From a virus (lineage: Duplodnaviria > Heunggongvirae > Uroviricota > Caudoviricetes): a stretch of 29,429 nucleotides of DNA. Below, piece after piece: positions 13,169 to 29,400 of the stretch. The translations under genes were made by a program, and so were the position numbers. The DNA lies in the IMG/VR virus record IMGVR_UViG_2698536379_000013; one strand, written 5' to 3'. Each line of letters begins with the position of its first letter. Position 1 is the stretch's first letter. The notes beneath the pieces were generated by a model. The model was given only the letters and a program-made list of their open reading frames with translations. It was not told the DNA's origin and did not search any database.

Positions 13169-14202
13169 TGGGAAAGAGTAAGAAGAACCGCGCTGCGGCG
13201 ACGAAACAGATCCAGCTTAAAAGTCAAACTACAGCCGAAGCATTCAGCTTCGGCGATCCCGTTCCTGTTCTGGACCGCCGAGAACTGCTGGATTATGTGG
13301 AATGCGTACAGATGGACCGCTGGTATGAGCCGCCCGTCAGCTTTGACGGACTGGCGCGCACCTTCCGCGCTGCCGTGCATCATAGTTCCCCGATTGCAGT
13401 AAAGTGCAACATTCTGACCAGCACCTACATCCCTCACCCGCTGCTCAGCCAGCAGGCTTTTTCGCGTTTTGTGCAGGACTATCTGGTTTTTGGTAACGCC
13501 TACCTGGAGAAACGCACGAACCGCTTCGGTGAAGTTATCGCCCTTGAGCCTGCACTGGCAAAATACACCCGACGCGGGTTAGACCTGGATACCTACTGGT
13601 TTGTGCAATACGGTATGACAACCCAGCCGTATCAGTTCACGAAAGGCAGCATTTTTCATCTGATGGAACCGGATATTAATCAGGAGATCTACGGCCTGCC
13701 CGGTTATCTTTCTGCCATTCCGTCAGCCCTGCTCAACGAGTCCGCCACGCTGTTCCGTCGCAAGTATTACATTAACGGCAGTCATGCGGGCTTTATCATG
13801 TACATGACCGATGCCGCGCAAAACCAGGAGGATGTGAACAACCTCCGCAATGCGATGAAAAGCGCCAAAGGTCCAGGCAACTTCCGCAACCTGTTTATGT
13901 ACTCGCCTAACGGCAAAAAAGACGGGCTTCAGATCATCCCATTGTCAGAAGTCGCGGCGAAGGATGAGTTTTTGAATATCAAAAATGTCAGCCGCGACGA
14001 CATGATGGCTGCGCACCGCGTGCCGCCGCAAATGATGGGGATTATGCCTAATAATGTTGGAGGGTTTGGGGATGTGGAGAAGGCCAGTCGCGTATTTGTA
14101 CGTAATGAATTAACGCCCTTGCAAAAAAGGCTACAAGAGCTGAACGACTGGCTGGGCGAAGAAGTGATTAAATTTACGCCCTATATTCTTTCAGAAGAAT
14201 AA
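13168..14202 (+). CDS. Portal protein (P2 gpQ-like)
   Basis: ATG 13168 overlaps the P stop (TGATG) with GGAGA SD; 344 aa in the conserved P-Q arrangement. Confidence 0.9.
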   Translation: MGKSKKNRAAATKQIQLKSQTTAEAFSFGDPVPVLDRRELLDYVECVQMDRWYEPPVSFDGLARTFRAAVHHSSPIAVKCNILTSTYIPHPLLSQQAFSRFVQDYLVFGNAYLEKRTNRFGEVIALEPALAKYTRRGLDLDTYWFVQYGMTTQPYQFTKGSIFHLMEPDINQEIYGLPGYLSAIPSALLNESATLFRRKYYINGSHAGFIMYMTDAAQNQEDVNNLRNAMKSAKGPGNFRNLFMYSPNGKKDGLQIIPLSEVAAKDEFLNIKNVSRDDMMAAHRVPPQMMGIMPNNVGGFGDVEKASRVFVRNELTPLQKRLQELNDWLGEEVIKFTPYILSEE

Positions 14203-14210
14203 TTCCGAAC

Positions 14211-14909
14211 TTATTTGTTTCTTCTTTGTTCACGCCTTGTCTTGGCTTCGATAAGGCGTTGAGGTTCAGTGTAAAGCCGTTCTAAAAAAAGATAGGTAAA
14301 ATCTTCAAGATCCTCAGCAGCAGCTTTATCCAAAATACCTTCATGCGCTCCATCATTTCCGTCATCTTTAACGCATTCAGCTAGTTCCCTTAAAGCTTCA
14401 GGCAGTAGATGATTATCAAATAACCACTCCATTCTTAACCCTAGGCTTCTCCTTATTTTTTGCGCAGGCCCTTGCTCCCCATCAGGAAGAAGTCCTTTTG
14501 TGGCATAATCAAGGCAAAGCCTAAACATGGTTGCTGCTGCATTATAACAACCTATAGCCAAACATTTCGCCCCTTCCTCATATGCACTATTGATATGCTC
14601 AGGTAAGAACTCTGGTGGCTCCTCTACTGCTAAGTCTGCCGGTGATATAGGCCTAACAACCTCTGCAACTTCCTTTAAGCCGAATATTCCACTTTCCCAA
14701 TTATAGCCATCTAAAGTTTTATTTTTCGTTAAAGGTCTGCAAAGAAACATTGTCGTTTTATGACACTCTCGGCAAACACAATAGACCTCGTACTCGTATG
14801 TTTTACCCCCGCCCAATGCATTGTAAACCCTAGTGCAATTCAGCCCATTAACATCAAACGCTATTTTTTGTGATCCACATCGTGGACAGTCATCCACTAA
14901 CATAACCAT
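14211..14909 (-). CDS. Hypothetical zinc-ribbon protein (cargo gene between portal gene and cos)
   Basis: 232 aa, ATG with AGGGAGGAG SD. N-terminal Cys cluster CPRCG...CVCRECH; C-terminal alpha-type region with GNDGAH motif, loosely reminiscent of DUF4145-type domains (recall only). AT-richer than flanking genes. Confidence 0.65.
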   Translation of the reverse strand: MVMLVDDCPRCGSQKIAFDVNGLNCTRVYNALGGGKTYEYEVYCVCRECHKTTMFLCRPLTKNKTLDGYNWESGIFGLKEVAEVVRPISPADLAVEEPPEFLPEHINSAYEEGAKCLAIGCYNAAATMFRLCLDYATKGLLPDGEQGPAQKIRRSLGLRMEWLFDNHLLPEALRELAECVKDDGNDGAHEGILDKAAAEDLEDFTYLFLERLYTEPQRLIEAKTRREQRRNK

Positions 14910-15019
14910 GTCAATTACTCCTCCCTATGAAAAAAATGAGTTGAAAAATTGAATATTCACGACTTAAAAAGCTAGCCTATTTAACACCATAATTTCATTA
15001 ATTCAACCATGAGCGCGCG

Positions 15020-15038
15020 CTCGTATCCCCGCCACGCC
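15020..15038 (-). other. Putative cos (cohesive end) site, P2/186-like
   Basis: Minus-strand GGCGTGGCGGGGAtacgag; first 13 nt match the recalled 186 cos overhang GGCGTGGCGGGGAAAGCAT. Adjacent perfect palindrome GAGCGCGCGCTC at 15011-15022. Confidence 0.4.
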
Positions 15039-15082
15039 TGCCCGCTTTATGTAGTGGTTTTCATGCGCCTGCATGACATAAG

Positions 15083-15107
15083 CAAAAGCCCGCCATTCCT
15101 AGCGGGC
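15083..15107 (-). terminator. Rho-independent terminator-like hairpin ending the SOS operon
   Basis: Stem gcccgc/gcgggc (15088-15093 and 15102-15107), 8-nt loop, followed on the minus strand by a T-run (A-run 15084-15087 on plus). Confidence 0.5.
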
Positions 15108-15198
15108 CTCAGCTAAAACGATCCTCAAACGATCATGCGGATTCATGCGGCATAGACATGCACAATCGCCAAAGCGGGCATCGAGACTTTTTGGAAAA

Positions 15199-15810
15199 CT
15201 ACGTAACCACAGTTAATGTGTGCATCCTGTCTCGAATTGCATCACACGTCTCATCAAAAAGCTTGGTGATGGTTGTACGGTTCAACTCTGCCTCTTTCCA
15301 ATAATTTTGCCAGTCAAATTCTGGATCGCCATGCTGAAACGATATTGACTCTGAAAGGCATTCCTTCCGGAAACGGTCCAAGATTATATAAACCTCTGGT
15401 GAGATGAACGGTTTGTTAGACTCAACACTTGTAACAAAAGTATTAAATGCATCGAAAAAAACTTTCAACCTTCTAAATTTTCTCTCTTCAAATGGTTCGT
15501 TGGGGTCAAAATGATCCAGCGCAGGCCTCAGCTTAAGCACGCTTTCTCTGGTTTCAAACATCGAATTCCAAATGAGACTATATGCTGATAACTCCTTATC
15601 AAAATACGCTTTCGTTACATAAACAGAATTGTCTAACTTAGCCTTTATTCTTTCATTAGTTGCACTCAGTTGTGATTGAAATTCAGCAATATCTTTGTTT
15701 AGCCGCGACTTATATCTTTCTAAATAAACTTTCCCGATCCAAACAAATATGCCAGATGCAACAAAAGACACCCCACCCAACGAAGCCAGAATTTTAAAGA
15801 CTAAATCCAT
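15199..15810 (-). CDS. Hypothetical membrane-anchored protein (SOS-operon cargo)
   Basis: 203 aa, ATG with AGGTGGGGG SD; N-terminal TM helix (ILASLGGVSFVASGIFVWIG) then soluble domain; AT-rich; last gene before the terminator. Confidence 0.65.
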   Translation of the reverse strand: MDLVFKILASLGGVSFVASGIFVWIGKVYLERYKSRLNKDIAEFQSQLSATNERIKAKLDNSVYVTKAYFDKELSAYSLIWNSMFETRESVLKLRPALDHFDPNEPFEERKFRRLKVFFDAFNTFVTSVESNKPFISPEVYIILDRFRKECLSESISFQHGDPEFDWQNYWKEAELNRTTITKLFDETCDAIRDRMHTLTVVT

Positions 15811-15858
15811 TGCGCCCCCACCTGCAAAAATAGTATTCCATTATAAGCTAATACATTT

Positions 15859-16119
15859 TTAATCAAACAGGGAATAATTCGCGTCAACCTCATCACTTCT
15901 CTGCTCTACCCTGGTGACTTCCATCAAAAACTCCAGGCCGTCATATAGCGAAACGGGGAATTCCAGCTCAAGCCAGAAGCAGTCTTCATAGGTGCGGCCC
16001 AACCAAAAACCTCCGCCACACTCCTTTGGGCGTTGAAAGAAGACCCAGCCGCCAGGGGTAAACCGTTCCAGCACCTGGCCCCGATAAATAATCTGGTGAT
16101 TACTGTCTTTTTTACCCAT
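15859..16119 (-). CDS. Hypothetical small protein
   Basis: 86 aa from ATG 16119 (MGKKDSNHQ...) with weak GAGG SD; the track version starts at TTG 16170. No recognisable motif. Confidence 0.5.
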   Translation of the reverse strand: MGKKDSNHQIIYRGQVLERFTPGGWVFFQRPKECGGGFWLGRTYEDCFWLELEFPVSLYDGLEFLMEVTRVEQRSDEVDANYSLFD

Positions 16120-16192
16120 GGCTAACGCCTCGCTACTCTCGTTGTTCAACCTTGCTGACGTCAGAATCAAGTTCTTACATCAGGAACGTTCC

Positions 16193-16426
16193 TTAGTGCA
16201 GCCAGCTGTCGTCTTCCCAAACCTGCTGCATAATTTCCATCACCCGCTTTTTGTCTTCATCAAGCTTTAAGCCACTCAGCTCAACGCCGTTTGCCGACCC
16301 TTTACGGATGCGGATAGCTGTCTTGGGATAGATGGGTTGCAGGTTGCGGTAAAGCTCTGACTCCAGAGCGTCCAGGGTAGACTGGCTAATCTTCTGCTCT
16401 TTATCGATCATTATTTCAATGCGCAT
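16193..16426 (-). CDS. DinI-like domain protein (possibly the C-terminal part of a Tum-like antirepressor)
   Basis: From ATG 16426 (MRIEIMIDK...) with GAGGTGA SD 5 nt upstream; resembles the DinI family (MRIEV...LSxELxRR...VSVR...QRISEILQETWE) by recall. Confidence 0.65.
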   Translation of the reverse strand: MRIEIMIDKEQKISQSTLDALESELYRNLQPIYPKTAIRIRKGSANGVELSGLKLDEDKKRVMEIMQQVWEDDSWLH

Positions 16427-16436
16427 AAAAGTCACC

Positions 16437-16625
16437 TCAGCTGATGACATCCATTGAGCGGTTGTATTCGTGGGTTCTGATTTTTGCCATGAGTTCATCT
16501 GTCAGTTCAGAAACCCACTGCAGGGCCAGCCCCTTCTCTTCATCACTACACTCACTAGCCGCTACAAGCTTAAGAAAAAAATCAATGCGCTGGAGCTTCA
16601 AAGACTCCAAAAAATAGTCCTGCAT
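16437..16625 (-). CDS. Tum-like SOS-inducible antirepressor, N-terminal ORF (frame differs from the DinI-like ORF)
   Basis: ATG 16625 with perfect AGGAGG SD; LexA box 43 bp upstream; 62-aa ORF overlapping the DinI-like ORF by 62 nt in another frame. Confidence 0.5.
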   Translation of the reverse strand: MQDYFLESLKLQRIDFFLKLVAASECSDEEKGLALQWVSELTDELMAKIRTHEYNRSMDVIS

Positions 16626-16777: not shown

Positions 16778-19192
16778 TTAATACAGGTTCCGCCATTTAT
16801 CATCCTCCTGCAGACGCTGGTTCCGATAGAAGATACGCAGGCCTGCTCCTGACGGAATACTGCCGCCGCGAAGGAGTAAATCGACCTCTTTCTCGCTGCC
16901 ATCAAATCCTCTGGACTTCAGTTCATAGACGAGCTGCTGTCGCTGATGATCTGTAATTCGCTGTTTGTAGTCTTTACGCCGTTTCGGTTTAACCAGGCGT
17001 AACCTTGCTGCCAGTTCCCGGCGCTCTTTTTTGCTCATACTGTGCAGGTAATCGTGCAATTCCTTGTCATCCATGCGGGTGATTTCCGTTCTGGTATCCC
17101 CATCAGCTGATTTGTCTTTCCCTTGTTGGTTCAAATTTTCAGCAAGGGGACAGTTATTGCCACGAGTCCAAGGGGCGCAAGCGCCCTGGTCGGCTGCCGC
17201 CTCCTGAACGTCAACGGCCTTACGAACCATTTTCCACTTCACCGCATGAGTGCAGATCTTGCCCTCTGCAATGGGTGACCAGATGCCATAAATACGAATG
17301 CCGTGATCGCCATAGGCGGTCGGCTCTTCGTTGATTTCATAAGCGGTTCTGATCAGGTGATATTTGCGGGGAACCAGTACGCCGCCCTGCTTCATGATGT
17401 AGGTGGCAAAACAACCAGCATCAGCAGCAGCCAGGATTGCATCAAGGCGCGGGTTATCCAGTACCGGCGCACCTGCTTTTTTGTCCCCCTGTTGCCTTGC
17501 CGCCTGACCAGCCAGCAATCGCAGTTCACGGTAAGCCTGACGCCCCGGAATGCCAAAGAAGCGGAATTGCTGAACACGATGCAGAGACGCCCAGGCATTA
17601 ACGTATTCAGCATTATCACGCAGGGATTTCCCCGTTTCCTTGCTGATCTCGCCAGTCAGACCACGCCCGTCAATGTTCTTACTGATGTATTTCGCGATGT
17701 AGCTTGTTGGCGTACCTTTGCGCGGGTTAATCAACTCAGACTTAAAGCGCGGCCCAGTGTTATTGCCCAGCTCCTCGCGGTCTTCACGGATGGCAAACTT
17801 ACGCAGTAATGCAGTGATGGCGCGGCGGTCTTTTTTGCGCATAAAACACAACAGGTGCCAGTGAACTGTACCGTCATGATGCGGCTCAGCCACCCGCACG
17901 CCATACCAGCGCAATCCGGCTTTGTGCATCGCCTTACGAAATGCAGCAAACATGCCGACCAGATAATCACTACTTTGTCTTACCGTCGCATTTGTCCAGG
18001 TTGGGTTGGGCCTGCCGTTATTTAGCGTGGAATGGAAACGTGACGGACAGGTGATGGTGTAGAAAACGGCGCAGTCACCGCGCATTTCCGCGATAAGCTC
18101 CAGACCTTTAACACAGGCCATCATCTCATTGCGGCGATGCGCAGGGTTGCTGCTGCTGGCGTTTACCACATCCTCCATGTCCAGCGTGTCGCCGTCTTCG
18201 TTCACCAGTTCATGAGAACGGAAAAACTCCAGCGACTTACGGCGCTGCTCACGTTTATGCATCACGGCTTCATAGCTGACATAAGGAGATGCTTTTTTGC
18301 TAACCAGGCAGACAGCGCGCAACTGCTCCTCCCGCCATTCGCAACGCATCTTCCATAATTTCCGATACCACCAGTCGGCGCACAACATACGCGCCAGCGA
18401 ACCCGGAATGAGTTCATAGGGCACGGGTTTACGGCGGTTTCTTTTCCGGCGGAGTTGCTCAAACGCAGGTGGGATGACATCCAGACGCAGGGTTTCCGCC
18501 GCCACCCTTTCCCATGTCTTGCGGATTTCTTCTGGCTTAACGTCATCGGTGGCATACAAATCGCCACAAGCTGCATCAAGGCACATGCTCATATGCGCAG
18601 CAACAAGGGTGGACAGGCGTTTCACCTGATCCTGACTCATTTCAGGCAGAATCAGCAGGCCGTCCAGCCCTTCATGGCTTGCCATAAAGCGAAAAGAAGT
18701 GGATAGCTGACTGTCGCGTACATGCTCCAGCCGTTCCAGACATGGCTTAATCGTCTCACGTAAATAGCGGGAATAAGCCTTTGGCCTGCCCTGGCTGCTG
18801 AAGTATTCAATACGTTGCATCAGCGGCTTGCTGATATGGGAAGGCTGGGCGTTGACGTCCGCCAGAATGACCATATCCGGATTAAAACGCTGCTGCTCAT
18901 GCGCCAGCTTTGCCCGACTAATGAGCTTATCCTGTTCCATTTCGCGCTGGACAGGATCACGGGATTCATTAAAGAAATAACGCTCCCAGACCTGATCACT
19001 CAGTGCCTCGCGGCGCAGTTGTTCCTGCTCGTTATCGGCAGCGTACAGAGTGATCAGGTTTGAAAGCGCAGAAACCGGCGCAACTTCCGCCGGGTCCAGA
19101 TAAGGGTTAATGGCCTTTTTCGGGCTGTTCCATGAGAATGCTGCGGCGAACTCGTTAAAGCCGCTGCAGTTGTTCATATCAGCATGGCTCAT
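16778..19192 (-). CDS. Replication initiation endonuclease (P2 gpA-like rolling-circle initiator)
   Basis: Contains the conserved active-site tyrosine motif [13 protein letters not shown] and [11 protein letters not shown]. Start set to ATG 19192, which overlaps the Dam stop (ATGA); the track start at 19219 is TTG. Confidence 0.9.
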
Positions 19193-20046
19193 GCACGCAC
19201 TCCGTACACGACGGAACAATCCACGCCACGCGAAGGATCAAATCCTACCCAGCAGCGCGGCCCGGAAACAGCGATGATTTCTGTTGCAGATTTACTCTCA
19301 CCAGCTGCCACGCCGATGCTGCGTTTTGCCTTGATGTAGTGGTGAGTAAAATTGCGATACAGCGAACGGATCAGGGATGTGTCACTGTTAGAAACAATGA
19401 CCGGATGTCCTTCTGATGACCGATGTTCAAGAACGGATGCCAGGTGATACTGGTCATCTTCAGTGAAGCCGTCAGTGTGATAGCCGGAAAACATACCGTC
19501 ATAAGGCGGATCGCAATACACCACATCCCCCGCCTTCAACATCGCCAGCGTTTCATCAAAGCTGGCGCAGATAAACGTTGCCCGCTGGGCTTTCTCTGCA
19601 AATGCGCGAATTTCTTTTTCAGGGAAATACGGATTTTTATAATTACCGTACGGAATGTTGAAATGCCCGCTCTTGTTATAGCGACATAACCCACGGTAAC
19701 CATGACGATTGAGATACAGGAAATATACCGCTTTCATGAAATCAGTAATTTCAGTGGAGTAATTAAACTCCTGCCTTATGTTGTAATAAGCCACCTCCCT
19801 GTTTGCTTCCTCAAATAAAGCTCTGGCACGAGATATAAACGCCTCGCAATCAGCAGCAACCTTTTTATAGAGGTTGATTAAATCAGGATTAATATCCGCA
19901 ACAAGATAGCTGGGGTAATCCGTCTCCATCATCACAGCACAGGAACCCGCGAAAGGTTCAACCAGTCGCGGGCCAGCAGGAAGATGTTTTTTCAGTTCGG
20001 ACATAATGGCGGTTTTATTTCCCGCCCATTTCAGGATGGTACTCAT
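19189..20046 (-). CDS. dam: DNA adenine methyltransferase (Dam-like, orphan)
   Basis: From ATG 20046 ([11 protein letters not shown]...) with GGAGG SD; FAGSCAV SAM-binding and DPPY catalytic motifs; no adjacent restriction gene. Confidence 0.9.
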
Positions 20047-22124: not shown

Positions 22125-22241
22125 AGTGCAGTATCTCTTAGTTTGTAATCGTATCATCTCGTTTTATGTGGTTTGGTTTTGCTTTTCAAACCATGAATGG
22201 ATATTAAGATCTCATTTTATATGCGTCAGGGGGGTTTGATT
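22125..22241. promoter_or_regulatory. Lysis-lysogeny switch intergenic region (apl/cI promoters and operators)
   Basis: 117-bp AT-rich region between divergent apl-like and cI-like genes; candidate plus-strand promoter TTGCTT(22179-22184)-17-TATTAA(22202-22207). Confidence 0.45.
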
Positions 22242-22874
22242 ATGAGTCTAATCAAGGGTGGAAACGATAGTGGGGGGCGTGATGCCATCAACAGGCTGAT
22301 AAAAGCCTACAATTTCAGCTCACGCCAACAACTCTGCGAACACTTAAAAGTATCTAAAAGCACCATGGCAAACAGATACTTAAGAGATAGCTTTCCAGCA
22401 GAGTGGGTAATTCAATGTGCTCTAGAAACCGGGATCTCGCTTCTTTGGTTGGCAACCGGACAGGGTGATATGTATGCAGATAACTGTGACTCAAACATTC
22501 TCAAAAATGATAATGACGTCACAATTAGACCACTTTCTAAAATCGTAGCTCCCAGTATCAAATACACAGAATTAAGAAATGGTGAACTTCAATCATATGA
22601 CGAAATTTTATTAGATAGCAGGTTGGTTGAGGGCGATTCGTCAAACTATCTATTCATACAAACGACAACAGAAAGTTTTATTGTTGATGTATCTGTAAAA
22701 CAGATCAGTAATGGCTCTTGGCTTGTTGATATTGATGGAGTGAAAAGCATCGTAAAAGTAGCTCGAATTCCCGGAAATAAGCTTGTTGTTCATCAGGAAG
22801 AAACAACCTTTGAATGTGCAGTTGATGACGTAGCCGTTGTAGGGCGTGTGGTAAAAGTGATTAAGAGCATCTAA
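22242..22874 (+). CDS. Immunity repressor CI (186 CI-type, no obvious S24 peptidase motif)
   Basis: HTH segment SRQQLCEHLKVSKSTMANRYL; start set to ATG 22242 (alternatives 22197 and 22221); stop immediately precedes the int ATG. Confidence 0.7.
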   Translation: MSLIKGGNDSGGRDAINRLIKAYNFSSRQQLCEHLKVSKSTMANRYLRDSFPAEWVIQCALETGISLLWLATGQGDMYADNCDSNILKNDNDVTIRPLSKIVAPSIKYTELRNGELQSYDEILLDSRLVEGDSSNYLFIQTTTESFIVDVSVKQISNGSWLVDIDGVKSIVKVARIPGNKLVVHQEETTFECAVDDVAVVGRVVKVIKSI

Positions 22875-22876
22875 TA

Positions 22877-23902
22877 ATGACGATCAGAAAACAGCCGAAC
22901 GGAAAGTGGTTGTGTGAATGCTACCCAAACGGGCGAGATGGCAAACGCGTACGTAAACAATTTGCGACAAAAGGCGAAGCCATTGCGTTTGAACGTTTCA
23001 CAATGGAAGAAGTGAACAAAAAACCGTGGCTGGGGGAAAAGGAAGATCGGCGACATTTGTCAGAAGTGATTGAACAATGGTACTCACTTTACGGGCAGAC
23101 GCTTGCTGACCCCAAACGCCTGATGGCGAAACTTAAAATTATCTGTAATGGTCTGGGCGATCCCATCGCTTCAGAACTGACCGCCGGTGATTTTACGAAA
23201 TACCGGGAAGCACGGCTAAAGGGTGAAGTGCGAAATGAAGATGGCGCGCTTATGTCGCCTGTTAAGCCCCGCACGGTAAATCTTGAACAACGCAACCTGT
23301 CATCGGTTTTTGGCACACTGAAAAAGCTGGGACACTGGTCAGCACCAAACCCACTGGCAGGACTTCCTACATTTAAAATTGCTGAAGGTGAGCTGGCCTT
23401 TCTTTCCATGGACGAAATCAAGCGCCTGTTGGATGCCTGCGCAGATTCTCAAAGCCCCAGCCTGCTGATGATTGCAAAAATATGCCTGGCCACCGGAGCA
23501 CGCTGGAGTGAAGCAGAAAATCTGCAGGGACACCAGTTGTCAAAATACCGCATCACATACACCAAGACGAAGGGCAAGAAAAACCGTACCGTGCCAATAT
23601 CTCAGGATCTGTATGACGAACTTCCCAAAAATAGAGGGAAATTATTCACACCATGCAGAAAAGCCTTTGAGCGGGCAGTAAAGCGGGCCGGTATCGAACT
23701 GCCAGAAGGACAATGCACCCACGTGCTACGCCATACATTCGCCAGCCACTTTATGATGAATGGCGGTAATATACTTGTGCTTAAAGAAATTTTAGGCCAT
23801 ACCGATATAAAAATGACCATGATTTATGCTCATTTCGCACCAGAGCATCTTGAAGATGCGGTGACAAAAAATCCTTTAGCCACTCTTTTTTCTACTAATT
23901 AA
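22877..23902 (+). CDS. int: Tyrosine integrase (P2/186-type)
   Basis: 341 aa with C-terminal catalytic region HVLRHTFASHF...LGHTDIKMTMIYAHF; adjacent to the repressor gene and upstream of the att core. Confidence 0.95.
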   Translation: MTIRKQPNGKWLCECYPNGRDGKRVRKQFATKGEAIAFERFTMEEVNKKPWLGEKEDRRHLSEVIEQWYSLYGQTLADPKRLMAKLKIICNGLGDPIASELTAGDFTKYREARLKGEVRNEDGALMSPVKPRTVNLEQRNLSSVFGTLKKLGHWSAPNPLAGLPTFKIAEGELAFLSMDEIKRLLDACADSQSPSLLMIAKICLATGARWSEAENLQGHQLSKYRITYTKTKGKKNRTVPISQDLYDELPKNRGKLFTPCRKAFERAVKRAGIELPEGQCTHVLRHTFASHFMMNGGNILVLKEILGHTDIKMTMIYAHFAPEHLEDAVTKNPLATLFSTN

Positions 23903-23914
23903 AAGGTAATTATT

Positions 23915-24811
23915 ATGACAGAGCTCTACCTTTTAGATCGAAACATAATTGATCTAATGAATAAGCACAACAATTCTTCTAATATCCCAGAACCTAATAG
24001 AATTGATATGCTTAATAAATTAAAAGCATTAGATATCAAAGGAAATACTTTCTCACCTTTACTATCAATAATAGAAGGAAAAACCCATAAAAAACTTGAC
24101 AGTAACGGCAAATTAGAAATCATAAAAACACCTAATAAAAAAATAAGAAAATTAATTATAGAGGATAGTGAAATTGTAAAATCATTTATTAAAGAAGCTA
24201 ACACTGATTATGATTTCCTAACATCCAATGTAAATAAACTATCAAAAATAATATATGAAAAAGAAACTGACAGATTAATAGATAAAAAAACAAAATTCCT
24301 TGATAAGCTACAAGAAAAAATAGGGGAAACAAAGAAAGTAGAACAACGAGAGAATACATATTATGAGTTTAAAGAGATAGTAAACGAGTTTAATGAATTT
24401 AAAAACCAACCGTTTACAATTGTAGCTCTGATGTATATCTTTGGAAGCCAACGAGCTGAGAAGATATTAAAATTTAAAAGTAAAAATTTTTCATCTTATA
24501 ACCCAATTGCTGATTTTAATCATTACAAAACCACTATCCAACTTAGATTTGATGATAGATTAAAAGATAATGCAAACATACATTTTATTTCACTTGATTC
24601 AGATATTGAATTTATACAGCAACTTTTTCATCCTAATAATGCTAAAATTAGTAGTTCAACAAACTACACTAATACTTTAGCTATTGAGTGGACAATTAAT
24701 AAAAATTTTCTACAGAGTGAAATACCGGAAACAAAGGGCGAACTCAACAATCAAGAATTGTTTTACTCATGCTTTCAAGACTTGTATGGGTACGATGCCC
24801 GCGTGTCTTAA
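23915..24811 (+). CDS. Hypothetical protein (AT-rich cargo between int and att); N-terminus resembles a PIN-domain first strand
   Basis: 298 aa, ATG 12 nt after the int stop with AAGG SD. N-terminal MTELYLLDRNIIDLM resembles the h-h-D-T-N-h-h motif that opens PIN nucleases (inference from a single motif). Very AT-rich, Lys/Asn-rich. Confidence 0.6.
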   Translation: MTELYLLDRNIIDLMNKHNNSSNIPEPNRIDMLNKLKALDIKGNTFSPLLSIIEGKTHKKLDSNGKLEIIKTPNKKIRKLIIEDSEIVKSFIKEANTDYDFLTSNVNKLSKIIYEKETDRLIDKKTKFLDKLQEKIGETKKVEQRENTYYEFKEIVNEFNEFKNQPFTIVALMYIFGSQRAEKILKFKSKNFSSYNPIADFNHYKTTIQLRFDDRLKDNANIHFISLDSDIEFIQQLFHPNNAKISSSTNYTNTLAIEWTINKNFLQSEIPETKGELNNQELFYSCFQDLYGYDARVS

Positions 24812-24961
24812 CAACAGGTGATAAATAGCAGACTTAATACCTACAATGTGGCGGCATTTTGGCGGCAGAACATTAAAAAAGCGTAAAACGGACAAACACA
24901 AAATAACAATAACAGACTGATTTTAAACGAAACTTAATGTTTTTGTTATGGTAAAAATGGT

Positions 24962-25006
24962 ATGTAGGAATTTCGGACGCGGGTTCAACTCCCGCCAGCT
25001 CCACCA
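24962..25006 (+). ncRNA. ssrA: ssrA (tmRNA) 3-prime terminal fragment, about 45 nt: prophage attachment core
   Basis: ATGTAGGAATTTCGGACGCGGGTTCAACTCCCGCCAGCTCCACCA matches the recalled 3-prime end of enterobacterial tmRNA; upstream sequence is unrelated AT-rich DNA, so this is a partial copy. Confidence 0.75.
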
Positions 25007-25042
25007 CTTTTTAGTTGTTTGAAGTACAATGAAGTCTACTAA

Positions 25043-25074
25043 GCCCGCACAGCACAAGCTCTGCGGGCTTTTTT
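25043..25074 (+). terminator. Rho-independent terminator downstream of the ssrA fragment
   Basis: Stem gcccgca/tgcgggc (25043-25049 and 25062-25068) followed by TTTTTT (25069-25074). Confidence 0.6.
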
Positions 25075-25171
25075 ACGTCTATTGTCGTCCAGTGAGAATT
25101 GCTGAGAACTACGAGTTATGGCACCCTGAATGAGACCCACTAAGAAGGGTCCAAAAACCGAGGGTCCCAAA

Positions 25172-26401
25172 ATGGCAAAAATCGCTAAGAAGCTCACTGA
25201 CACTGAAATCAAAAGCACCAAGCCAGCCGACAAAGAAATCAACTTGTTTGACGGAGATGGTTTGATACTACGAATCGCTCCCCTCTCGAAAGGAGGAAAG
25301 AAGAATTGGTATTTCAGGTATGCAGTGCCAGTGAGTAAAAAAAGAACCAAAATGAGCCTTGGGACCTATCCTCACCTTACACTGGCAAGAGCCAGAGCCT
25401 TACGTGATGAATATCTTTCCTTTCTGGCAAATGGTGTTGATCCACAAATCCATAACAACGATAAGGCGAAGGCATTAAAGAGTGCTACTGAGCACACTCT
25501 CCAAGCCGTAGCGCGGAAATGGTTAGATGAGAAGGTAAAGACATCAGGTATCTCACAAGACCATGCAGCAGACATCTGGCGCAGCTTAGAGAGAAATGTC
25601 TTTCCTGGTCTGGGTAATGTCCCTATCAATGAGATCCGGCCTAAGCTCTTAAAACAACACCTTGATCCTATTAAGCAACGAGGCGTATTGGAAACTCTAC
25701 GCCGTATCATTTCACGTCTGAATGAAATCTTCAGGTGGGCAGCTACTGAAGAACTTATTGAGTTCAACCCGGCTGACAACCTTGGTCAAAGATTCAGTAA
25801 ACCAAAAAAGCAAAATATGCCTGCCCTTCCCCCAAGCGAATTGCCAAGGTTTATGGAATCTTTGACGAATGCGTCAATCCGGTTGGAAACACGTATGCTA
25901 ATTGAATGGCAATTGTTGACATGGGTTCGTCCGGGTGAAGCCGTTCGCGCAAGATGGTCTGATATTGATACAACCAACAGCATTTGGAACATTCCTGCTG
26001 ATTTCATGAAAATGAAAAAGCCTCACAAAGTTCCTTTGAGTAAAGAAGCTTTGCGCATCCTTGAATTAATGAAATCAATAAGTGGGCATAGAGAATGGGT
26101 TTTCCCCAGCATTAAAGCGCCTCTTAATCATATGCATGAACAAACAGCCAACGCAGCTATCATCCGAATGGGGTTCGGAGGCGAGCTTGTAGCTCACGGT
26201 ATGCGTTCTATTGCGCGAACAGCGGCAGAGGAGTCTGGTAAATTCAGAGCTGAAGTTCTTGAGGCAGCGCTTGCCCACTCGAAAAAAGATGAAATTATCG
26301 CAGCATACAATCGTGCAGAATATCTGATAGAGCGACAGAGTTTGATGCAATGGTGGAGTGATTACGTTCAAGCTCAAAGATCAAATGCTCTGGTAGCCTA
26401 A
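25172..26401 (+). CDS. intA: Tyrosine integrase, IntA (CP4-57)-like
   Basis: From ATG 25172 (MAKIAKKLTDTEIK...) with GAGGG SD; resembles recalled E. coli IntA (LTDTEIK, DIWRSLERNVFP, ALETLRR, AALAH, MQWW). Confidence 0.85.
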   Translation: MAKIAKKLTDTEIKSTKPADKEINLFDGDGLILRIAPLSKGGKKNWYFRYAVPVSKKRTKMSLGTYPHLTLARARALRDEYLSFLANGVDPQIHNNDKAKALKSATEHTLQAVARKWLDEKVKTSGISQDHAADIWRSLERNVFPGLGNVPINEIRPKLLKQHLDPIKQRGVLETLRRIISRLNEIFRWAATEELIEFNPADNLGQRFSKPKKQNMPALPPSELPRFMESLTNASIRLETRMLIEWQLLTWVRPGEAVRARWSDIDTTNSIWNIPADFMKMKKPHKVPLSKEALRILELMKSISGHREWVFPSIKAPLNHMHEQTANAAIIRMGFGGELVAHGMRSIARTAAEESGKFRAEVLEAALAHSKKDEIIAAYNRAEYLIERQSLMQWWSDYVQAQRSNALVA

Positions 26402-26439
26402 GTATCAGAATAGCTAATATAATCCTGAAGGTAAAGAAA

Positions 26440-26856
26440 ATGGAAACCCTATTCAAAGTTTTTGAAAAATTTAGTTCCAGACCACTTTTTTTTATTTTTT
26501 TCGGACTCTCACTTTGTGAATTTTTTCAGAAACAATCTGTTCTGATGAATCCATCAGCAGATAACATCGCGAAATTATTCGCAGCCATGATATTAGTTGT
26601 TTTTTTTACTTGGGGATTTGAATGGCTAATCTTTAAATTCAATGTAAACCTTGAACCTCATGATCAAGGCGATATTGGACCAACAATTGGAACGGCTGCT
26701 TTAGCTGTATACTTAGTTTATGCCTTTCATTTTCTCAGTGAAAATCCTGAAGCATTAAATTTAAAGTTATTAACTAACTCTGGTTTTATATACAGCACAA
26801 CTCTATTATTATTCTCATTAGAAAGTATGAAGCTTAGAAGACTTAAACAAAAGTAA
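26440..26856 (+). CDS. Hypothetical small multi-pass membrane protein
   Basis: 138 aa with several hydrophobic segments (LFFIFFGLSL, AAMILVVFFTWGF, ALAVYLVYAF, LLLFSL); AT-rich; convergent with the 603-aa ORF. Confidence 0.45.
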   Translation: METLFKVFEKFSSRPLFFIFFGLSLCEFFQKQSVLMNPSADNIAKLFAAMILVVFFTWGFEWLIFKFNVNLEPHDQGDIGPTIGTAALAVYLVYAFHFLSENPEALNLKLLTNSGFIYSTTLLLFSLESMKLRRLKQK

Positions 26857-28654
26857 ACAACATCATTGCGAGATAAATACAAAAGAGGTATGGCGGTAAA
26901 TCACCATACCTAAAACATAATAATTTTGGTAGTATCGGTGATACATAATCCACACAAATATTGGAGCGATACTGAGACGCTATAACCTGATATCTTTCTC
27001 CATAACCAATTCTAAGTTCAGATTTAAGATGCGTTTTTTTCTTTCCCTTTTTCTTTTGGGGTTTATCGTGATGTGAATAATATATCTTTGGTTTCAGATT
27101 AAATCCTTCAACAACTTCCTTCCAAGTTTGAACCGCTAATAAAAATTGAATAGAATTGATGTCAATTAATTTTTTAGCTTTTGTAGTAGTTGAGATCCAT
27201 AAAACCACATCAGTAATTGTCTCTTCAAATTTTACTACTCCTCTTACTATAGTTTGAATTGTGGTTTTTGACTGTTCAATATTATAAATTAGATCATGCG
27301 GTTTATCTGATATCTTTACAGCAATAATCTCTCCATTTTTATAAAGATCTGCAACTTCAACATTGTAGTCCTTGCCATTATCACGTAAGGATGGTATTTT
27401 TTTTAGCTGGCGATCTAGAAGTATATAACCTTTCTCATCAGACATCTTTTCATTAAAATAATATTCTCTATATTCTAATTTGTCTTTAGAAGTTCCTTCT
27501 GCGATTTGTTTTATTTTTTCAGCTTGCCATACTTTGAAGTCGTCTTCCTTAAGAGCATCTTTAACCTCAAATTTTATACTGGCTAAAGAAGTAGACAAAT
27601 ACTTCATAAAAGCAGAGTTAAATCGACTCCATCCTCCCCTCTTAAGGAAGAAGTGCTCGCTGCCCTCGCTATAAGTAATGCTCAATATTTCTTTTAACGA
27701 GGCTGTATGACCACTGTTATTTTCATTAGTTATCTTAACAAAAACTTTATTGACATCTTTTATGTTGTTATTTTTTATGAATTTCTTTACATCTGCTATT
27801 TTTATGTCATTAATTTTATCTGATGATTGAAGATACTTTCCACTCCCCTCAACTTTTGTGTGCAATTTAAAAAATGTCAAAGAATTATTAATTACAATAG
27901 AGGCACCAAAAGATTGAATCTCATCAATAATAACTTTTGCATCATCTGTAATGATCGATTGAAGTAGACAATTATCAAGCTCATCTATCTTTGACTCGTC
28001 AGTGATTTTTTCCGATTTAGGAAATTCGATTTTCTCTTTGGTTGCCAACGAAGAATCAATATCATTGAAAACATCGACTAATGCAGTAGGAGCACCATCC
28101 AAACTTAGCTGAATTGAATCAGAAAAAGTTATATTATTACATCCCCACTTGTCAGTTTCTTTGGCTTTTGTTTTGAGATGCTCGATGGATTCGCCAGGAA
28201 AATATGCTCCTTGAACAAACTGTGAGTATGAGGATGCCTCCTGACTCTTTCCCCCACAAAAGAATCTGCTTTTCTTGAGTAAAATATTTTCATCATTAGC
28301 TATACGCATTGCCACATTCAGCCCAAAGTCTGCTTCAATAAACTTGCTGAGATAAAAATGTGATTTACCAAGACTGATAAGATAGCAATTCTCAGGGTCC
28401 TTTTCTTTAAATCCTATTAGCAGGCCAAAATAGAATATATTATGAGGCTTTTCAATTTCTTCATTGAAGAAATCACTAAAAACATCCCACCACCATACTT
28501 CATTTCCTTTTAATTTATCAGAAAAATAAAATTTGAGTTGATAAGATTGATGTAGAATAGTTTTTTGTTCGACAAGCCCTTCTTTAATGATTTTTTTTGT
28601 CAATTCTGGAAGACTCTTATATGGCATTCTATATATGTTATAGCTGACTGACAT
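26843..28654 (-). CDS. Large hypothetical protein (603 aa), no recognisable catalytic motif
   Basis: Long ATG-initiated ORF with AGAGG SD-like sequence upstream; AT-rich, Lys/Asn/Ile-rich; no Walker A, no CxxxCxxC; the last ~50 codons look like hydrophobic read-through. Confidence 0.65.
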   Translation of the reverse strand: MSVSYNIYRMPYKSLPELTKKIIKEGLVEQKTILHQSYQLKFYFSDKLKGNEVWWWDVFSDFFNEEIEKPHNIFYFGLLIGFKEKDPENCYLISLGKSHFYLSKFIEADFGLNVAMRIANDENILLKKSRFFCGGKSQEASSYSQFVQGAYFPGESIEHLKTKAKETDKWGCNNITFSDSIQLSLDGAPTALVDVFNDIDSSLATKEKIEFPKSEKITDESKIDELDNCLLQSIITDDAKVIIDEIQSFGASIVINNSLTFFKLHTKVEGSGKYLQSSDKINDIKIADVKKFIKNNNIKDVNKVFVKITNENNSGHTASLKEILSITYSEGSEHFFLKRGGWSRFNSAFMKYLSTSLASIKFEVKDALKEDDFKVWQAEKIKQIAEGTSKDKLEYREYYFNEKMSDEKGYILLDRQLKKIPSLRDNGKDYNVEVADLYKNGEIIAVKISDKPHDLIYNIEQSKTTIQTIVRGVVKFEETITDVVLWISTTTKAKKLIDINSIQFLLAVQTWKEVVEGFNLKPKIYYSHHDKPQKKKGKKKTHLKSELRIGYGERYQVIASQYRSNICVDYVSPILPKLLCFRYGDLPPYLFCIYLAMMLFTFV

Positions 28655-28722
28655 TTAATCGCCTCTGAAATATATATTCATACAAGTTAATGTTAAAGTG
28701 AAAAATTTTTAATATACTTAAT

Positions 28723-29400
28723 TTATCGAGCTAAAATACTTAATGAATTTAACAACTGTATATCCAAGGTTTCACTTGAGGGCACTGGTAGTCCGTTCGC
28801 AATGCGATAATTTTTTATTGACTGCCTTGTGGAAGGCCCCATTATGCCGTCAATATTCCCGTTGTAATAATCTTTGTCCAGCAAAGCGAATTGAACCCGC
28901 ATGATTAAGCGCTTACGCTTCTCTGTACCAGAAGTCAGCCCATTACTTGCACGGTTAGCTTCTGTAGTTCCAACAGAATTCGTAGTAGTAGAGTTGTTAT
29001 TGTCGTTAGAACGAAGCGAACGCACAGAGGAAGAGGACGATGAGGGACTTGTTCCTGAACTTGAAGACCCAGATGAACTTGGTGAGCTGTATGTTTTTGG
29101 ATAATAGGGAGTGCTGCCACCATAGTACCCGCCACCTGATGATGAACGGTGAGAACTATGGCTCCGATGGGAGCTATGACTGCGATGCCCTGCAATGTAG
29201 AATGGAACTTCGGTGTTAAGTGGGGCTATCACTAAATCATGTTCATTAAGAGTCATACCAGGCAAATCACTTGCCCATACAGAATTATTGAGTGCCAAAA
29301 ACCCCGGAAGTAGAGCAGCAAAATGAACCGCCCCGGTTTTCCTGGAGAGTGTTTTATCTGTGAACTCAGGCTGCCAGATCATCGTTTCTGATGGAAGCAT
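28723..29400 (-). CDS. Secreted His-Xaa-Ser repeat protein with C-terminal peptidoglycan-binding-like domain (possibly HxsA-like)
   Basis: Signal-peptide-like segment AVHFAALLPGFLALNNSVWA; five tandem His-Xaa-Ser triplets HRSHSSHRSHSSHRS (nt 29143-29187); Ser-rich linker; C-terminal DGIMGPSTRQSIKNYRIANGLPV resembles PG_binding_1. True start may lie upstream of the window. Confidence 0.65.
   Translation of the reverse strand: MLPSETMIWQPEFTDKTLSRKTGAVHFAALLPGFLALNNSVWASDLPGMTLNEHDLVIAPLNTEVPFYIAGHRSHSSHRSHSSHRSSSGGGYYGGSTPYYPKTYSSPSSSGSSSSGTSPSSSSSSVRSLRSNDNNNSTTTNSVGTTEANRASNGLTSGTEKRKRLIMRVQFALLDKDYYNGNIDGIMGPSTRQSIKNYRIANGLPVPSSETLDIQLLNSLSILAR

What the first reader, a model, noticed from the sequence alone, without database searches (positions are those of the whole stretch)
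23903..24961. AT-rich cargo gene between integrase and att core, with PIN-like N-terminus
Seen: a 298-aa very AT-rich ORF starts 12 nt after the int stop and is followed by about 150 bp of AT-rich DNA before the ssrA-derived att core, so it lies inside the prophage at the int/att junction. Its first residues (LYLLDRNIIDLM) resemble the opening strand of PIN-domain nucleases. Inference: an accessory gene, possibly a nuclease-based defence or toxin, co-transcribed with cI-int in the lysogen.
Basis: partly seen in the sequence, partly recalled or inferred. Interest (0 to 1): 0.6.

Follow-up and report, generated by a model that had tools for sequence, protein, structure and literature searches.

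The report
Prophage cargo gene, probable PIN-like nuclease
A real, AT-rich 298-codon gene sits in a swappable cargo slot between the integrase and the attachment site of a phage-186-like prophage in E. coli; it belongs to an undescribed protein family that most likely has a divergent PIN-type nuclease core and is a plausible but untested anti-phage defence gene.

Summary
ORF 23915-24811 (+, 298 aa, 27.6% GC) starts 12 nt after the int stop. It ends about 150 nt before the 45-bp ssrA-derived att core, inside a 186-like prophage of E. coli. It is a conserved gene: homologues down to 42% identity, dN/dS 0.16-0.33. It occupies the slot that holds Orf69 in phage 186, at the end of the cI-int lysogenic operon. 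Related prophages carry unrelated AT-rich genes there.

No Pfam, NCBIfam, PHROG or PADLOC model matches. A profile search finds about 195 clusters of roughly 270-aa relatives, none annotated. AlphaFold gives a confident model (pLDDT 95).

Support for a PIN fold is only moderate:
- hhalign against 118 PF01850 proteins gives P about 0.01.
- Two family members weakly hit PIN_4.
- The invariant or near-invariant D8, E54, D200 and D228 fall where the PIN catalytic residues would lie.

Foldseek and HMMER find nothing. There is no antitoxin, and a helical insertion of about 90 residues splits the core. Relatives lie beside restriction-modification and SIR2 genes, and one is fused to a Lit-like protease.

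Verdict: a stand-alone PIN-like candidate defence effector in a minor P2-family hotspot. It is moderately interesting and its function is untested.

The parts
22197..22874 (+). [quoted passage not shown] The true start may be the internal ATG at about 22242, which would give the 210 aa seen in relatives.
   Evidence: Pfam Phage_CI_repr 1.6e-32 and Phage_CI_C 3e-35. Relatives are annotated as phage repressor protein CI, 210 aa.
22877..23902 (+). Tyrosine integrase of the 186-like prophage.
   Evidence: Pfam Int_N 3.2e-28 and Phage_integrase 1e-24. 54% identical to phage 186 Int.
23903..23914 (+). 12-nt int-to-cargo junction with a Shine-Dalgarno-like AAGG (23903-23906). No terminator.
   Evidence: Sequence read directly. 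The terminator scan finds none between int and the ORF.
23915..24811 (+). Cargo gene: 298-aa protein of an uncharacterised family, 27.6% GC.
   Evidence: ORF call. 12 close homologue clusters and 195 clusters by profile search. dN/dS 0.16-0.33. AF2 pLDDT 88, then 95. No Pfam, PADLOC, PHROG or NCBIfam match.
23915..24226 (+). N-terminal half of the putative PIN-like core (residues 1-104): strand 1 with D8 (23936-23938), two helices (D40), strand 2, helix with E54-G55 (24074-24079), a subfamily-specific beta-hairpin at 57-71, a helix, and strand 3 with D98.
   Evidence: Secondary structure of both AF2 models. Conservation in 133 sequences. hhalign aligns LDRN with LDTN and SPLLSIIEG with the PIN 'is..t..EL.yG' segment.
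24227..24484 (+). Helical insertion of about 86 residues (residues 105-190, five helices) that interrupts the core. Possible regulatory or sensor module.
24485..24625 (+). C-terminal half of the putative core (residues 191-237): N196 and D200 (24512-24514) at the start of a helix, strand 220-225, then S226-L-D228 (D228 at 24596-24598), which corresponds to the PIN 'T-x-D' motif.
   Evidence: D200 and D228 are invariant, and N196 is conserved in 98% of 133 sequences. Secondary structure. In the spliced alignment 'flT.D' aligns with PIN 'LVTrd'.
24626..24808 (+). C-terminal module (residues 238-298): a long beta-hairpin plus two helices. Less conserved across the wider family.
   Evidence: AF2 strands 238-247 and 253-261, helices 263-269 and 279-291. 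Profile matches of distant relatives mostly end near residue 240-270.
24812..24961 (+). Probable attP/attR arm (33% GC) with tandem 11-nt repeats at 24844-24865 that are candidate Int arm-type sites.
   Evidence: Repeats found. Analogous Int, IHF and Apl sites are annotated between Orf69 and attP in phage 186. Every cargo in related prophages stops 103-168 nt before the core.
24962..25006 (+). ssrA (tmRNA) 3'-end-derived att core, forming the prophage/chromosome junction.
   Evidence: Exact tmRNA 3' end at 24972-25006. Rfam tmRNA partial match. 100% identity to the O55:H7 chromosome from 24964. The same core follows the cargo in L001-L003, L006-L009, L017 and L019.
25056..25070 (+). ssrA intrinsic terminator, the first terminator-like site downstream of the cI-int-cargo unit.
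   Evidence: Terminator scan.

Best explanation
The gene is a phage-borne accessory gene (a moron). It occupies the variable cargo slot between int and attP of a 186-like (Peduoviridae) prophage integrated in the 3' end of ssrA of E. coli.

It is most likely transcribed as the last gene of the lysogenic cI-int operon, so the protein would be present in lysogens. The protein is a stand-alone member of an undescribed family. Its core is most likely a divergent PIN-type, metal-dependent nuclease fold with catalytic candidates D8, E54, D200 and D228, plus conserved D40 and D98. A helical insertion of about 90 residues interrupts the core, and a beta-hairpin/helical tail follows it. There is no antitoxin partner.

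Proposed mechanism, which is inferred: the nuclease is held inactive by its own insertion or tail. An incoming phage triggers it, and it then cuts RNA or DNA, aborting the infection and protecting the lysogen population and the resident prophage.

Shown here: gene reality, position, conservation, residue pattern, a confident fold model and the defence-type neighbourhoods of relatives. Inferred: PIN homology (about 0.7), co-transcription, nuclease activity and the defence role (about 0.5).
For: Position:
- The gene lies between int and the ssrA core.
- A 61%-identical homologue is followed directly by ogr-D-U-T on a 35.5-kb contig. That is the circular or excised phage gene order, so the gene travels with the phage.

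Operon:
- The gap after int is 12 nt, with a Shine-Dalgarno-like sequence and no terminator.
- The phage 186 record places Orf69 in the same slot, within the lysogenic operon, with the terminator beyond attP.

Variable slot:
- At least four unrelated AT-rich cargos occupy this position in E. coli prophages that share the same ssrA core.
- A 2026 preprint lists int-att as a minor P2 defence hotspot holding 3% of P2 systems (doi 10.64898/2026.02.27.708500).

Real gene:
- Homologues range from 42 to 100% identity.
- dN/dS is 0.16-0.33.
- The chance probability of the open frame is 1e-12.

PIN-like core:
- E54, D200 and D228 are invariant across 133 relatives, and D8, N10, D40 and D98 are conserved in at least 90%.
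- The AF2 models (pLDDT 88 and 95) have a secondary-structure order colinear with PIN.
- hhalign against 118 PF01850 proteins gives P 0.005-0.015, against 0.46-0.71 for reversed controls.
- PIN_4 is hit by 2 of 133 members, best E 2e-4.

Defence context of relatives:
- One lies in a type I R-M + Abi_C + Mrr island with an integrase.
- One lies next to a SIR2_2 gene.
- One lies next to SMC/AAA_15 + MComp1 + CTD1 genes.
- One is on a conjugative element.
- One 551-aa member is fused to a Lit-like protease (PADLOC Lit 6.6e-11).
- The same prophage carries a PD-T7-4-like gene in the main P2 hotspot.
Against: - No curated PIN-clan model matches the protein or the family consensus.
- HMMER between the family and PF01850 sequences is not significant in either direction.
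- Foldseek against PDB and BFVD finds nothing, with best E 0.9 and 0.5.
- The hhalign probability is only 3-8%.
- In the full-length hhalign alignment the PIN 'D.lIAA' helix aligns with helix 166-175, which lacks an acidic residue, rather than with D200. The residue mapping in the C-terminal half therefore rests on predicted secondary structure.
- I could not inspect whether the acidic residues cluster in 3D.
- No PADLOC model matches the window protein or three relatives.
- There are no expression, toxicity or phage-challenge data.
- The gene is rare. It is absent from 5,426 complete E. coli genomes, from INPHARED phages and from GTDB species representatives, so context statistics are thin.
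Confidence: 0.5

Rival explanations
1. The protein is not a nuclease. The core is a generic Rossmann-like alpha/beta/alpha domain, and the conserved acidic residues bind a nucleotide, metal or ligand. On this reading it acts as a sensor, regulator or other enzyme. It may still belong to a conflict system, for example as the sensing module in the Lit-like fusion.
For: - Two members weakly hit Pfam tRNA-synt_1b (E 0.041).
- No PIN profile is significant by HMMER.
- In the P0039 fusion the family domain sits N-terminal to a protease effector, a position often taken by sensor or regulatory domains.
Against: - The class I synthetase HIGH and KMSKS motifs are not conserved in the family. Only K186 is conserved.
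- The set of invariant residues is dominated by Asp/Glu at strand ends. Its order D...E-G...D...T/S-x-D is the PIN signature.
Confidence: 0.2
2. It is a VapC-like toxin that serves prophage maintenance (addiction) rather than defence. Its antidote would be unrecognised: a small ORF or RNA, an intramolecular inhibitor, or a phage or host protein encoded elsewhere.
Against: - No antitoxin-sized gene lies upstream or downstream. Int ends 12 nt before the gene and the att arm follows it.
- The same solitary arrangement occurs in Klebsiella and in a Morganella chromosomal locus.
- The protein is more than twice the size of VapC.
- Losing a prophage through Int-mediated excision would remove the toxin gene together with any antidote, and nothing in the sequence suggests differential stability.
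Confidence: 0.12
3. It is a lysogenic-conversion or counter-defence factor. It would benefit the phage or host in some other way, for example by degrading a host or competitor nucleic acid during induction, or by acting against a host defence or a satellite such as P4.
For: Cargo slots of P2-like phages also hold non-defence morons and some anti-defence genes. 28 P2 elements with anti-RM or anti-CRISPR genes are reported in doi 10.64898/2026.02.27.708500. The low GC and rarity fit any recently acquired accessory gene.
Against: Relatives occur in non-phage defence islands and as stand-alone chromosomal genes. That fits a host-protective role better than a phage-offensive one. The fusion to a Lit-like abortive-infection protease points the same way.
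Confidence: 0.1
4. It is a decaying or non-functional remnant, or a spurious ORF in AT-rich DNA.
For: There is no family annotation. The composition is extreme.
Against: - The open frame has a chance probability of 1e-12.
- Full-length homologues extend down to 42% identity, and about 195 clusters are found by profile search.
- dN/dS is 0.16-0.33.
- The AF2 model reaches pLDDT 95.
Confidence: 0.02

Closest known systems
VapC / PIN-domain ribonucleases (Pfam PF01850, PIN clan)
   Same: - A strand-1 'LDxN' motif with Asp.
- A Glu-Gly on the helix after strand 2.
- An Asp at the start of the helix before strand 4.
- A T/S-x-D motif after strand 4.
- The same order of strands and helices.
   Different: - 298 aa rather than about 130 aa.
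- A helical insertion of about 90 residues and a C-terminal tail of about 60 residues.
- No adjacent antitoxin.
- No significant HMMER match to any PIN model.
- hhalign P of only about 0.01.
Defence cargo of P2-like phage hotspots (Rousset et al. 2022, PMC9122126; int-att hotspot in doi 10.64898/2026.02.27.708500)
   Same: - An AT-rich, rapidly swapped gene at a fixed position of a P2-family prophage.
- Unrelated alternatives occupy the same slot in sister phages.
- The same prophage carries a PD-T7-4-like gene in the main gpA-portal hotspot.
   Different: - It lies in the minor int-att slot, not in the two main hotspots.
- It matches no known defence system in PADLOC v2.
- No phenotype is known.
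Phage 186 Orf69 (CP69)
   Same: The same genomic slot. In 186 the gene starts 14 nt after int, precedes the attP arm, and is annotated inside the lysogenic operon.
   Different: An unrelated sequence (hhalign P 0.78). 83 aa rather than 298 aa. Phage 186 integrates at ileY, not at ssrA.
Lit (e14 prophage abortive-infection protease, Peptidase_U49)
   Same: One family member (P0039, 551 aa) carries a Lit-like domain C-terminal to the family domain. This links the family to prophage-type abortive-infection effectors.
   Different: The window protein has no protease domain. The link comes from a domain fusion in a distant relative only.

Membership tests
PIN domain superfamily (VapC-like, Pfam clan PIN) | Significant match to a curated PIN-clan sequence model | tested here: not met
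   No PIN family is reported for the window protein at E<=1 or for the family consensus at E<=10. Only 2 of 133 relatives hit PIN_4, best E 2e-4. HMMER between the family and 118 PF01850 proteins is not significant.
PIN domain superfamily (VapC-like, Pfam clan PIN) | Three-layer alpha/beta/alpha fold with a central parallel sheet, superposable on solved PIN domains | tested here: inconclusive
PIN domain superfamily (VapC-like, Pfam clan PIN) | Four conserved acidic residues at the C-terminal ends of strands 1 and 4 and the N-termini of the helices after strand 2 and before strand 4 | tested here: met
   D8 is conserved in 96% of 133 relatives, and E54, D200 and D228 in 100%. They sit at the expected secondary-structure positions in the AF2 models. 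Clustering in 3D could not be inspected.
PIN domain superfamily (VapC-like, Pfam clan PIN) | Mg2+/Mn2+-dependent nuclease activity | not testable with these tools
   This needs biochemistry.
VapBC type II toxin-antitoxin module | Adjacent, usually upstream and overlapping, small antitoxin gene (VapB) | tested here: not met
   Int ends 12 nt upstream and the att arm follows downstream. No plausible small ORF is present. The gene is also solitary in L009, L020 and L011.
VapBC type II toxin-antitoxin module | Compact single-domain toxin of about 120-150 aa | tested here: not met
   The protein is 298 aa, with an insertion of about 90 residues and a C-terminal module.
Anti-phage defence cargo of P2-like prophage hotspots | Fixed position in the phage genome with unrelated alternative genes in related phages | tested here: met
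   Cargos of 309/339 aa, 222 aa, 298 aa and 411+298 aa lie between int and the same ssrA core. Orf69 occupies the slot in phage 186. The hotspot is described in doi 10.64898/2026.02.27.708500.
Anti-phage defence cargo of P2-like prophage hotspots | Match to a known defence system model | tested here: not met
   PADLOC v2 gives 0 families for the window protein at E<=1 and none for P0010, P0009 or P0017.
Anti-phage defence cargo of P2-like prophage hotspots | Homologues enriched next to known defence genes | tested here: inconclusive
   Qualitatively yes. Neighbours include type I R-M + Abi_C + Mrr, SIR2_2, SMC/AAA_15 + MComp1 + CTD1 and a Lit-like fusion. Only about 10 independent contexts could be read, and no statistics were possible.
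Anti-phage defence cargo of P2-like prophage hotspots | Protection against phage infection when expressed | not testable with these tools
   This needs plaque and liquid-infection assays.

The most novel reading that the evidence does not exclude
The gene is the first recognised example of a new single-protein abortive-infection family found in Proteobacterial mobile elements, comprising about 195 clusters at 50% identity. In this family a cryptic PIN-like nuclease is split by a helical insertion that gates or senses, so no antitoxin is needed. The module is sometimes fused to a Lit-like protease. In 186-like phages it is delivered by the little-studied int-attP cargo slot and expressed from the repressor-integrase operon.
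Probability: 0.3. Interest if true: 0.6.

Novelty: new variant of a known kind. Interest (0 to 1): 0.42.

Why it matters
If this is confirmed, it would add an unannotated and structurally distinctive family (pLDDT 95, no close PDB neighbour) to the list of prophage-borne immune genes. It would also show how a PIN-type nuclease can be kept safe without an antitoxin. And it would draw attention to the int-attP slot of 186-like phages as a place to mine for further systems. The gene is wired to the repressor-integrase transcript, so it would be expressed exactly when the phage is a lysogen. That makes the question of who benefits from prophage-encoded defence directly testable with one small deletion. 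If the protein proves inactive or is not a nuclease, the finding reduces to an ordinary hypothetical moron.

Tried and rejected
Family and fold searches that found nothing useful:
- Pfam, NCBIfam, PHROGs and PADLOC on the protein: no usable hit.
- Pfam on the family consensus and on a consensus with the insertion spliced out: no PIN hit.
- Profile search of solved-structure sequences: nothing.
- Foldseek against PDB and BFVD: nothing below E 0.5.
- hhalign against a low-diversity Shigella-type VapC profile: P 0.04-0.06, and the C-terminal half alone was not significant. I therefore collected 118 diverse PF01850 proteins using a generic VapC-like query that I wrote myself. All returned hits carry precomputed PF01850. 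I then repeated hhalign.
- HMMER in both directions between the family and the PIN set: not significant.

Sequence collections with no or few matches:
- tblastn against INPHARED phages: none.
- blastn of the gene and of the P0010 gene against 5,426 complete E. coli genomes: none.
- GTDB species representatives: none.
- Plasmids: two weak hits at 24% identity.

Ideas considered and rejected:
- 186 Orf69 as a homologue: rejected.
- The other slot cargos (L001, L002, L037, and the 411-aa gene of L003) as remote relatives: rejected.
- An internal promoter for the gene: the promoter scan gives no more hits than shuffles do (10 against 9.3), so there is no evidence either way.

Full report
**1. The observation**

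The window holds an ATG-initiated ORF at 23915-24811 (+), 298 aa. The upstream ORF 22877-23902 is a tyrosine integrase (Pfam Int_N 3e-28, Phage_integrase 1e-24). The one before it, 22197-22874, is a CI repressor (Phage_CI_repr, Phage_CI_C).

- The int stop is at 23900-23902, so the gap is 12 nt. AAGG lies 8 nt before the ATG.
- The gene is 27.6% GC (GC3 22%), against 47% for int and 48.7% for the window.
- With that composition a stop codon is expected every 11-12 codons. An open frame of 298 codons has a chance probability of about 1e-12.
- Downstream, the exact 3' end of tmRNA lies at 24972-25006, supported by an Rfam tmRNA partial match, E 4e-10.
- From 24964 onward the window is 100% identical to the ssrA-adjacent island of E. 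coli O55:H7 chromosomes.

The host is therefore E. coli. The prophage ends at the ssrA-derived core, and the gene lies inside the prophage between int and attR.

One refinement concerns the 150 bp after the gene (33% GC). It contains tandem 11-nt repeats, CAATGTGGCGG/CATTTTGGCGG, at 24844-24865. In phage 186 the equivalent stretch carries annotated Int arm-type, IHF and Apl sites. In every related prophage I examined, the cargo ends 103-168 nt before the core. This stretch is best read as the attP arm.

**2. What kind of element, and what kind of slot**

The left-hand neighbours are apl/cII/fil/DUF5347/DUF2732/TraR-like/Dam/gpA. Together with the capsid and terminase genes further left, they are those of a 186-like member of the P2 family. 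Int is 54% identical to 186 Int.

The GenBank record of phage 186 shows the order pL-cI-int-Orf69-attP. Orf69 starts 14 nt after int, and the "terminator of lysogenic operon" is annotated beyond attP. The window gene sits exactly where Orf69 sits but is unrelated to it. I found no terminator-like site between int and the gene. The first one downstream is the ssrA terminator at 25056-25070. Co-transcription with cI-int is therefore a reasonable inference from architecture, but it is not shown.

The slot is variable. E. coli prophages with the same cI-int backbone and the same ssrA core carry one of the following:
- a 309-aa or related 339-aa protein with predicted membrane segments (L001, L002, L035, L036);
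- a 222-aa membrane protein (L037);
- a 411-aa protein followed by a 46%-identical homologue of the window gene (L003-L008);
- the window gene itself.

All of these cargos are AT-rich. A 61%-identical homologue on a 35.5-kb contig is followed directly by ogr-D-U-T. That is the circular or excised phage order, so the gene is carried in the phage genome. [quoted passage not shown] It also reports that most tested unknown genes in P4 hotspots were protective (doi 10.64898/2026.02.27.708500).

**3. The gene is real and conserved, but rare**

The 5.8-billion-protein search returned only 12 clusters, at 100-42% identity, from E. coli, Klebsiella variicola, Morganella and metagenomes. All are full length and none is annotated.

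- Nei-Gojobori dN/dS is 0.16-0.33 for unsaturated pairs and about 0.2 for the window gene against its 68%-identical relatives.
- All close homologues keep 27-32% GC in hosts of about 50% GC.
- The gene is absent from 5,426 complete E. coli genomes, from INPHARED phages and from GTDB species representatives. Three IMG/VR contigs carry it or a 69% relative.
- An exhaustive profile search found 195 cluster representatives at E<=1e-3, mostly 260-300 aa. None of those tested has a Pfam domain.

**4. Is it PIN-like?**

Direct family searches fail. Pfam, NCBIfam, PHROGs and PADLOC give nothing for the protein or for the family consensus.

AlphaFold2 gives a confident model: pLDDT 88.1 with 12 sequences, and 95.1 with pTM 0.90 using 133 sequences. 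The secondary structure is identical in both.

- The top matches are designed helical repeats, which fit the helical insertion.

Across 133 relatives the invariant positions are E54, D200 and D228. The positions conserved in at least 90% are D8, N10, D40, S51, G55, F91, A95, D98, K186 and N196. On the model's secondary structure these map onto PIN elements as follows:

| Model element | Conserved residue or motif | PIN equivalent |
|---|---|---|
| End of strand 1 | D8, in LDRN | VapC LDTN, invariant |
| Helix after strand 2 | E54-G55, in "SPLLSIIEG" | VapC "SSVTLMELIYG" |
| Start of the helix before the next long strand | D200 | third PIN acidic residue |
| Directly after that strand | S/T-x-D228 | PIN "T-x-D" |

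This is the order and placement of the four PIN acidic residues.

hhalign of the family against 118 diverse PF01850 proteins gives P 0.009 for the full-length alignment. I retrieved those proteins with a generic VapC-like query that I wrote myself, and all hits carry precomputed PF01850. With various 81-residue deletions P is 0.005-0.015, and reversed controls give 0.46-0.71. The N-terminal motifs align as predicted, and in the spliced version "flT.D" aligns with "LVTrd". Two of the 133 members hit Pfam PIN_4, best E 2e-4.

Several results count against the assignment:
- The hhalign probabilities are only 3-8%.
- HMMER in both directions is not significant.
- In the full-length hhalign alignment the PIN "D.lIAA" helix aligns with helix 166-175 rather than with D200.
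- I could not inspect the 3D clustering of the acidic residues.

I rate a PIN-like nuclease core at about 0.7. The main alternative is a generic Rossmann-like domain with other chemistry.

If it is PIN-like, it is atypical. A helical insertion of about 90 residues (99-190) lies between strand 3 and the D200 helix. The close subfamily has a beta-hairpin insertion at 57-71. A C-terminal hairpin-plus-helices module of about 60 residues follows the core.

**5. Function**

There is no antitoxin-like gene. Int ends 12 nt upstream and the att arm follows. The gene is likewise solitary after int in Klebsiella and in metagenomic prophages, and between ssb and an acetolactate synthase gene in Morganella. 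It fails the membership test for a VapBC module.

The contexts of relatives point to conflict systems:
- A Serratia island has an integrase, type I R-M with Abi_C, and, in a related contig, Mrr.
- One gene lies next to a SIR2_2 protein.
- One locus lies beside SMC/AAA_15 + MComp1 + CTD1 genes and a relaxase accessory gene.
- One is on a conjugative element.
- A 551-aa member keeps D/E/D/D and is fused to a Lit-like protease domain (PADLOC Lit 6.6e-11).
- The same prophage carries a DUF4145 / PD-T7-4-like gene in the main gpA-portal hotspot.

The best-supported reading is a stand-alone, self-restrained nuclease effector. It would be expressed in the lysogen and act against superinfecting phages by abortive infection or exclusion. 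The trigger, the substrate and the role of the insertion are inferred and not shown.

Rivals:
- a non-nuclease sensor or regulator (0.2);
- an addiction toxin with an unrecognised antidote (0.12);
- a conversion or counter-defence factor (0.1);
- a remnant (0.02).

**6. Comparison and novelty**

The mechanism most resembles a VapC/PIN nuclease, and the biology most resembles the defence morons of P2-family hotspots (PMC9122126; doi 10.64898/2026.02.27.708500). It is not a member of any curated PIN family, of VapBC modules, or of any PADLOC v2 system.

I classify it as a new variant of a known kind: an undescribed family with a probable PIN-like core in an unusual split, antitoxin-free architecture, sitting in a recently noted minor hotspot. 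Interest is moderate at 0.42. A specialist would find it a sensible candidate rather than a surprise, and everything functional remains to be tested.

Noticed in passing
window 14211-16498 (- strand), between gpA (16778-19219) and portal (13165-14202): The main P2-family defence hotspot of this prophage holds four genes. One is a 231-aa DUF4145 protein that matches PADLOC PD-T7-4 (E 1.2e-6). Two are unknown ORFs of 202 aa and 102 aa. One is a DinI-like gene.
   Followed up: partly
window 24844-24865: Tandem 11-nt repeats CAATGTGGCGG/CATTTTGGCGG lie in the 150 bp between the cargo gene and the ssrA core. They resemble the Int arm-type sites annotated next to attP in phage 186. Each TGGCGG is also partly complementary to CCCGCCA in the core (inverted repeats I4 and I5).
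   Followed up: partly
L003-L008, 6572-7807 (E. coli prophages carrying the 46% homologue P0010): In these prophages a 411-aa AT-rich protein sits between int and the PIN-like gene. It has no Pfam or PADLOC hit, but by eye it carries a RES-domain-like stretch (RYSVAGQPCLYLGTSLYVCWQE). It could be a partner or a second, independent cargo.
   Followed up: no
P0039 (551 aa, metagenomic contig of 4.2 kb): A member of the family is fused at its C-terminus to a Lit-like metalloprotease domain (PADLOC Lit 6.6e-11; Pfam Peptidase_U49 1e-3, below the cut-off). P0150 (516 aa) and P0058 (371 aa) carry other, unidentified extensions.
   Followed up: partly
window 25130-29400: Immediately after the ssrA core lies a second, tandem island that is 100% identical to E. 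coli O55:H7. It has a 423-aa integrase, a 138-aa membrane-like ORF, a 602-aa DUF6119 protein on the minus strand and a 224-aa protein with a peptidoglycan-binding domain. RefSeq annotates HxsA nearby.
   Followed up: partly
window 24931-25074: Rfam reports a partial IsrM sRNA match (67 bits, far below the gathering score of 376) that overlaps the ssrA fragment and its terminator. It probably reflects shared ssrA-derived sequence rather than an sRNA gene. A snoR116 match at 24423-24504 is noise.
   Followed up: no
window 22197-22874: The cI ORF is 225 aa from its first ATG, whereas relatives are annotated at 210 aa. The real start is probably the internal ATG near 22242.
   Followed up: no
L030/L031 8001-10503: A 268-aa distant family member (P0020) is followed 194 nt downstream, on the same strand, by a 500-aa SIR2_2 protein and then a Y1 transposase. 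This may be a two-gene system. Both contigs appear to come from the same organism, so they count as one observation.
   Followed up: no
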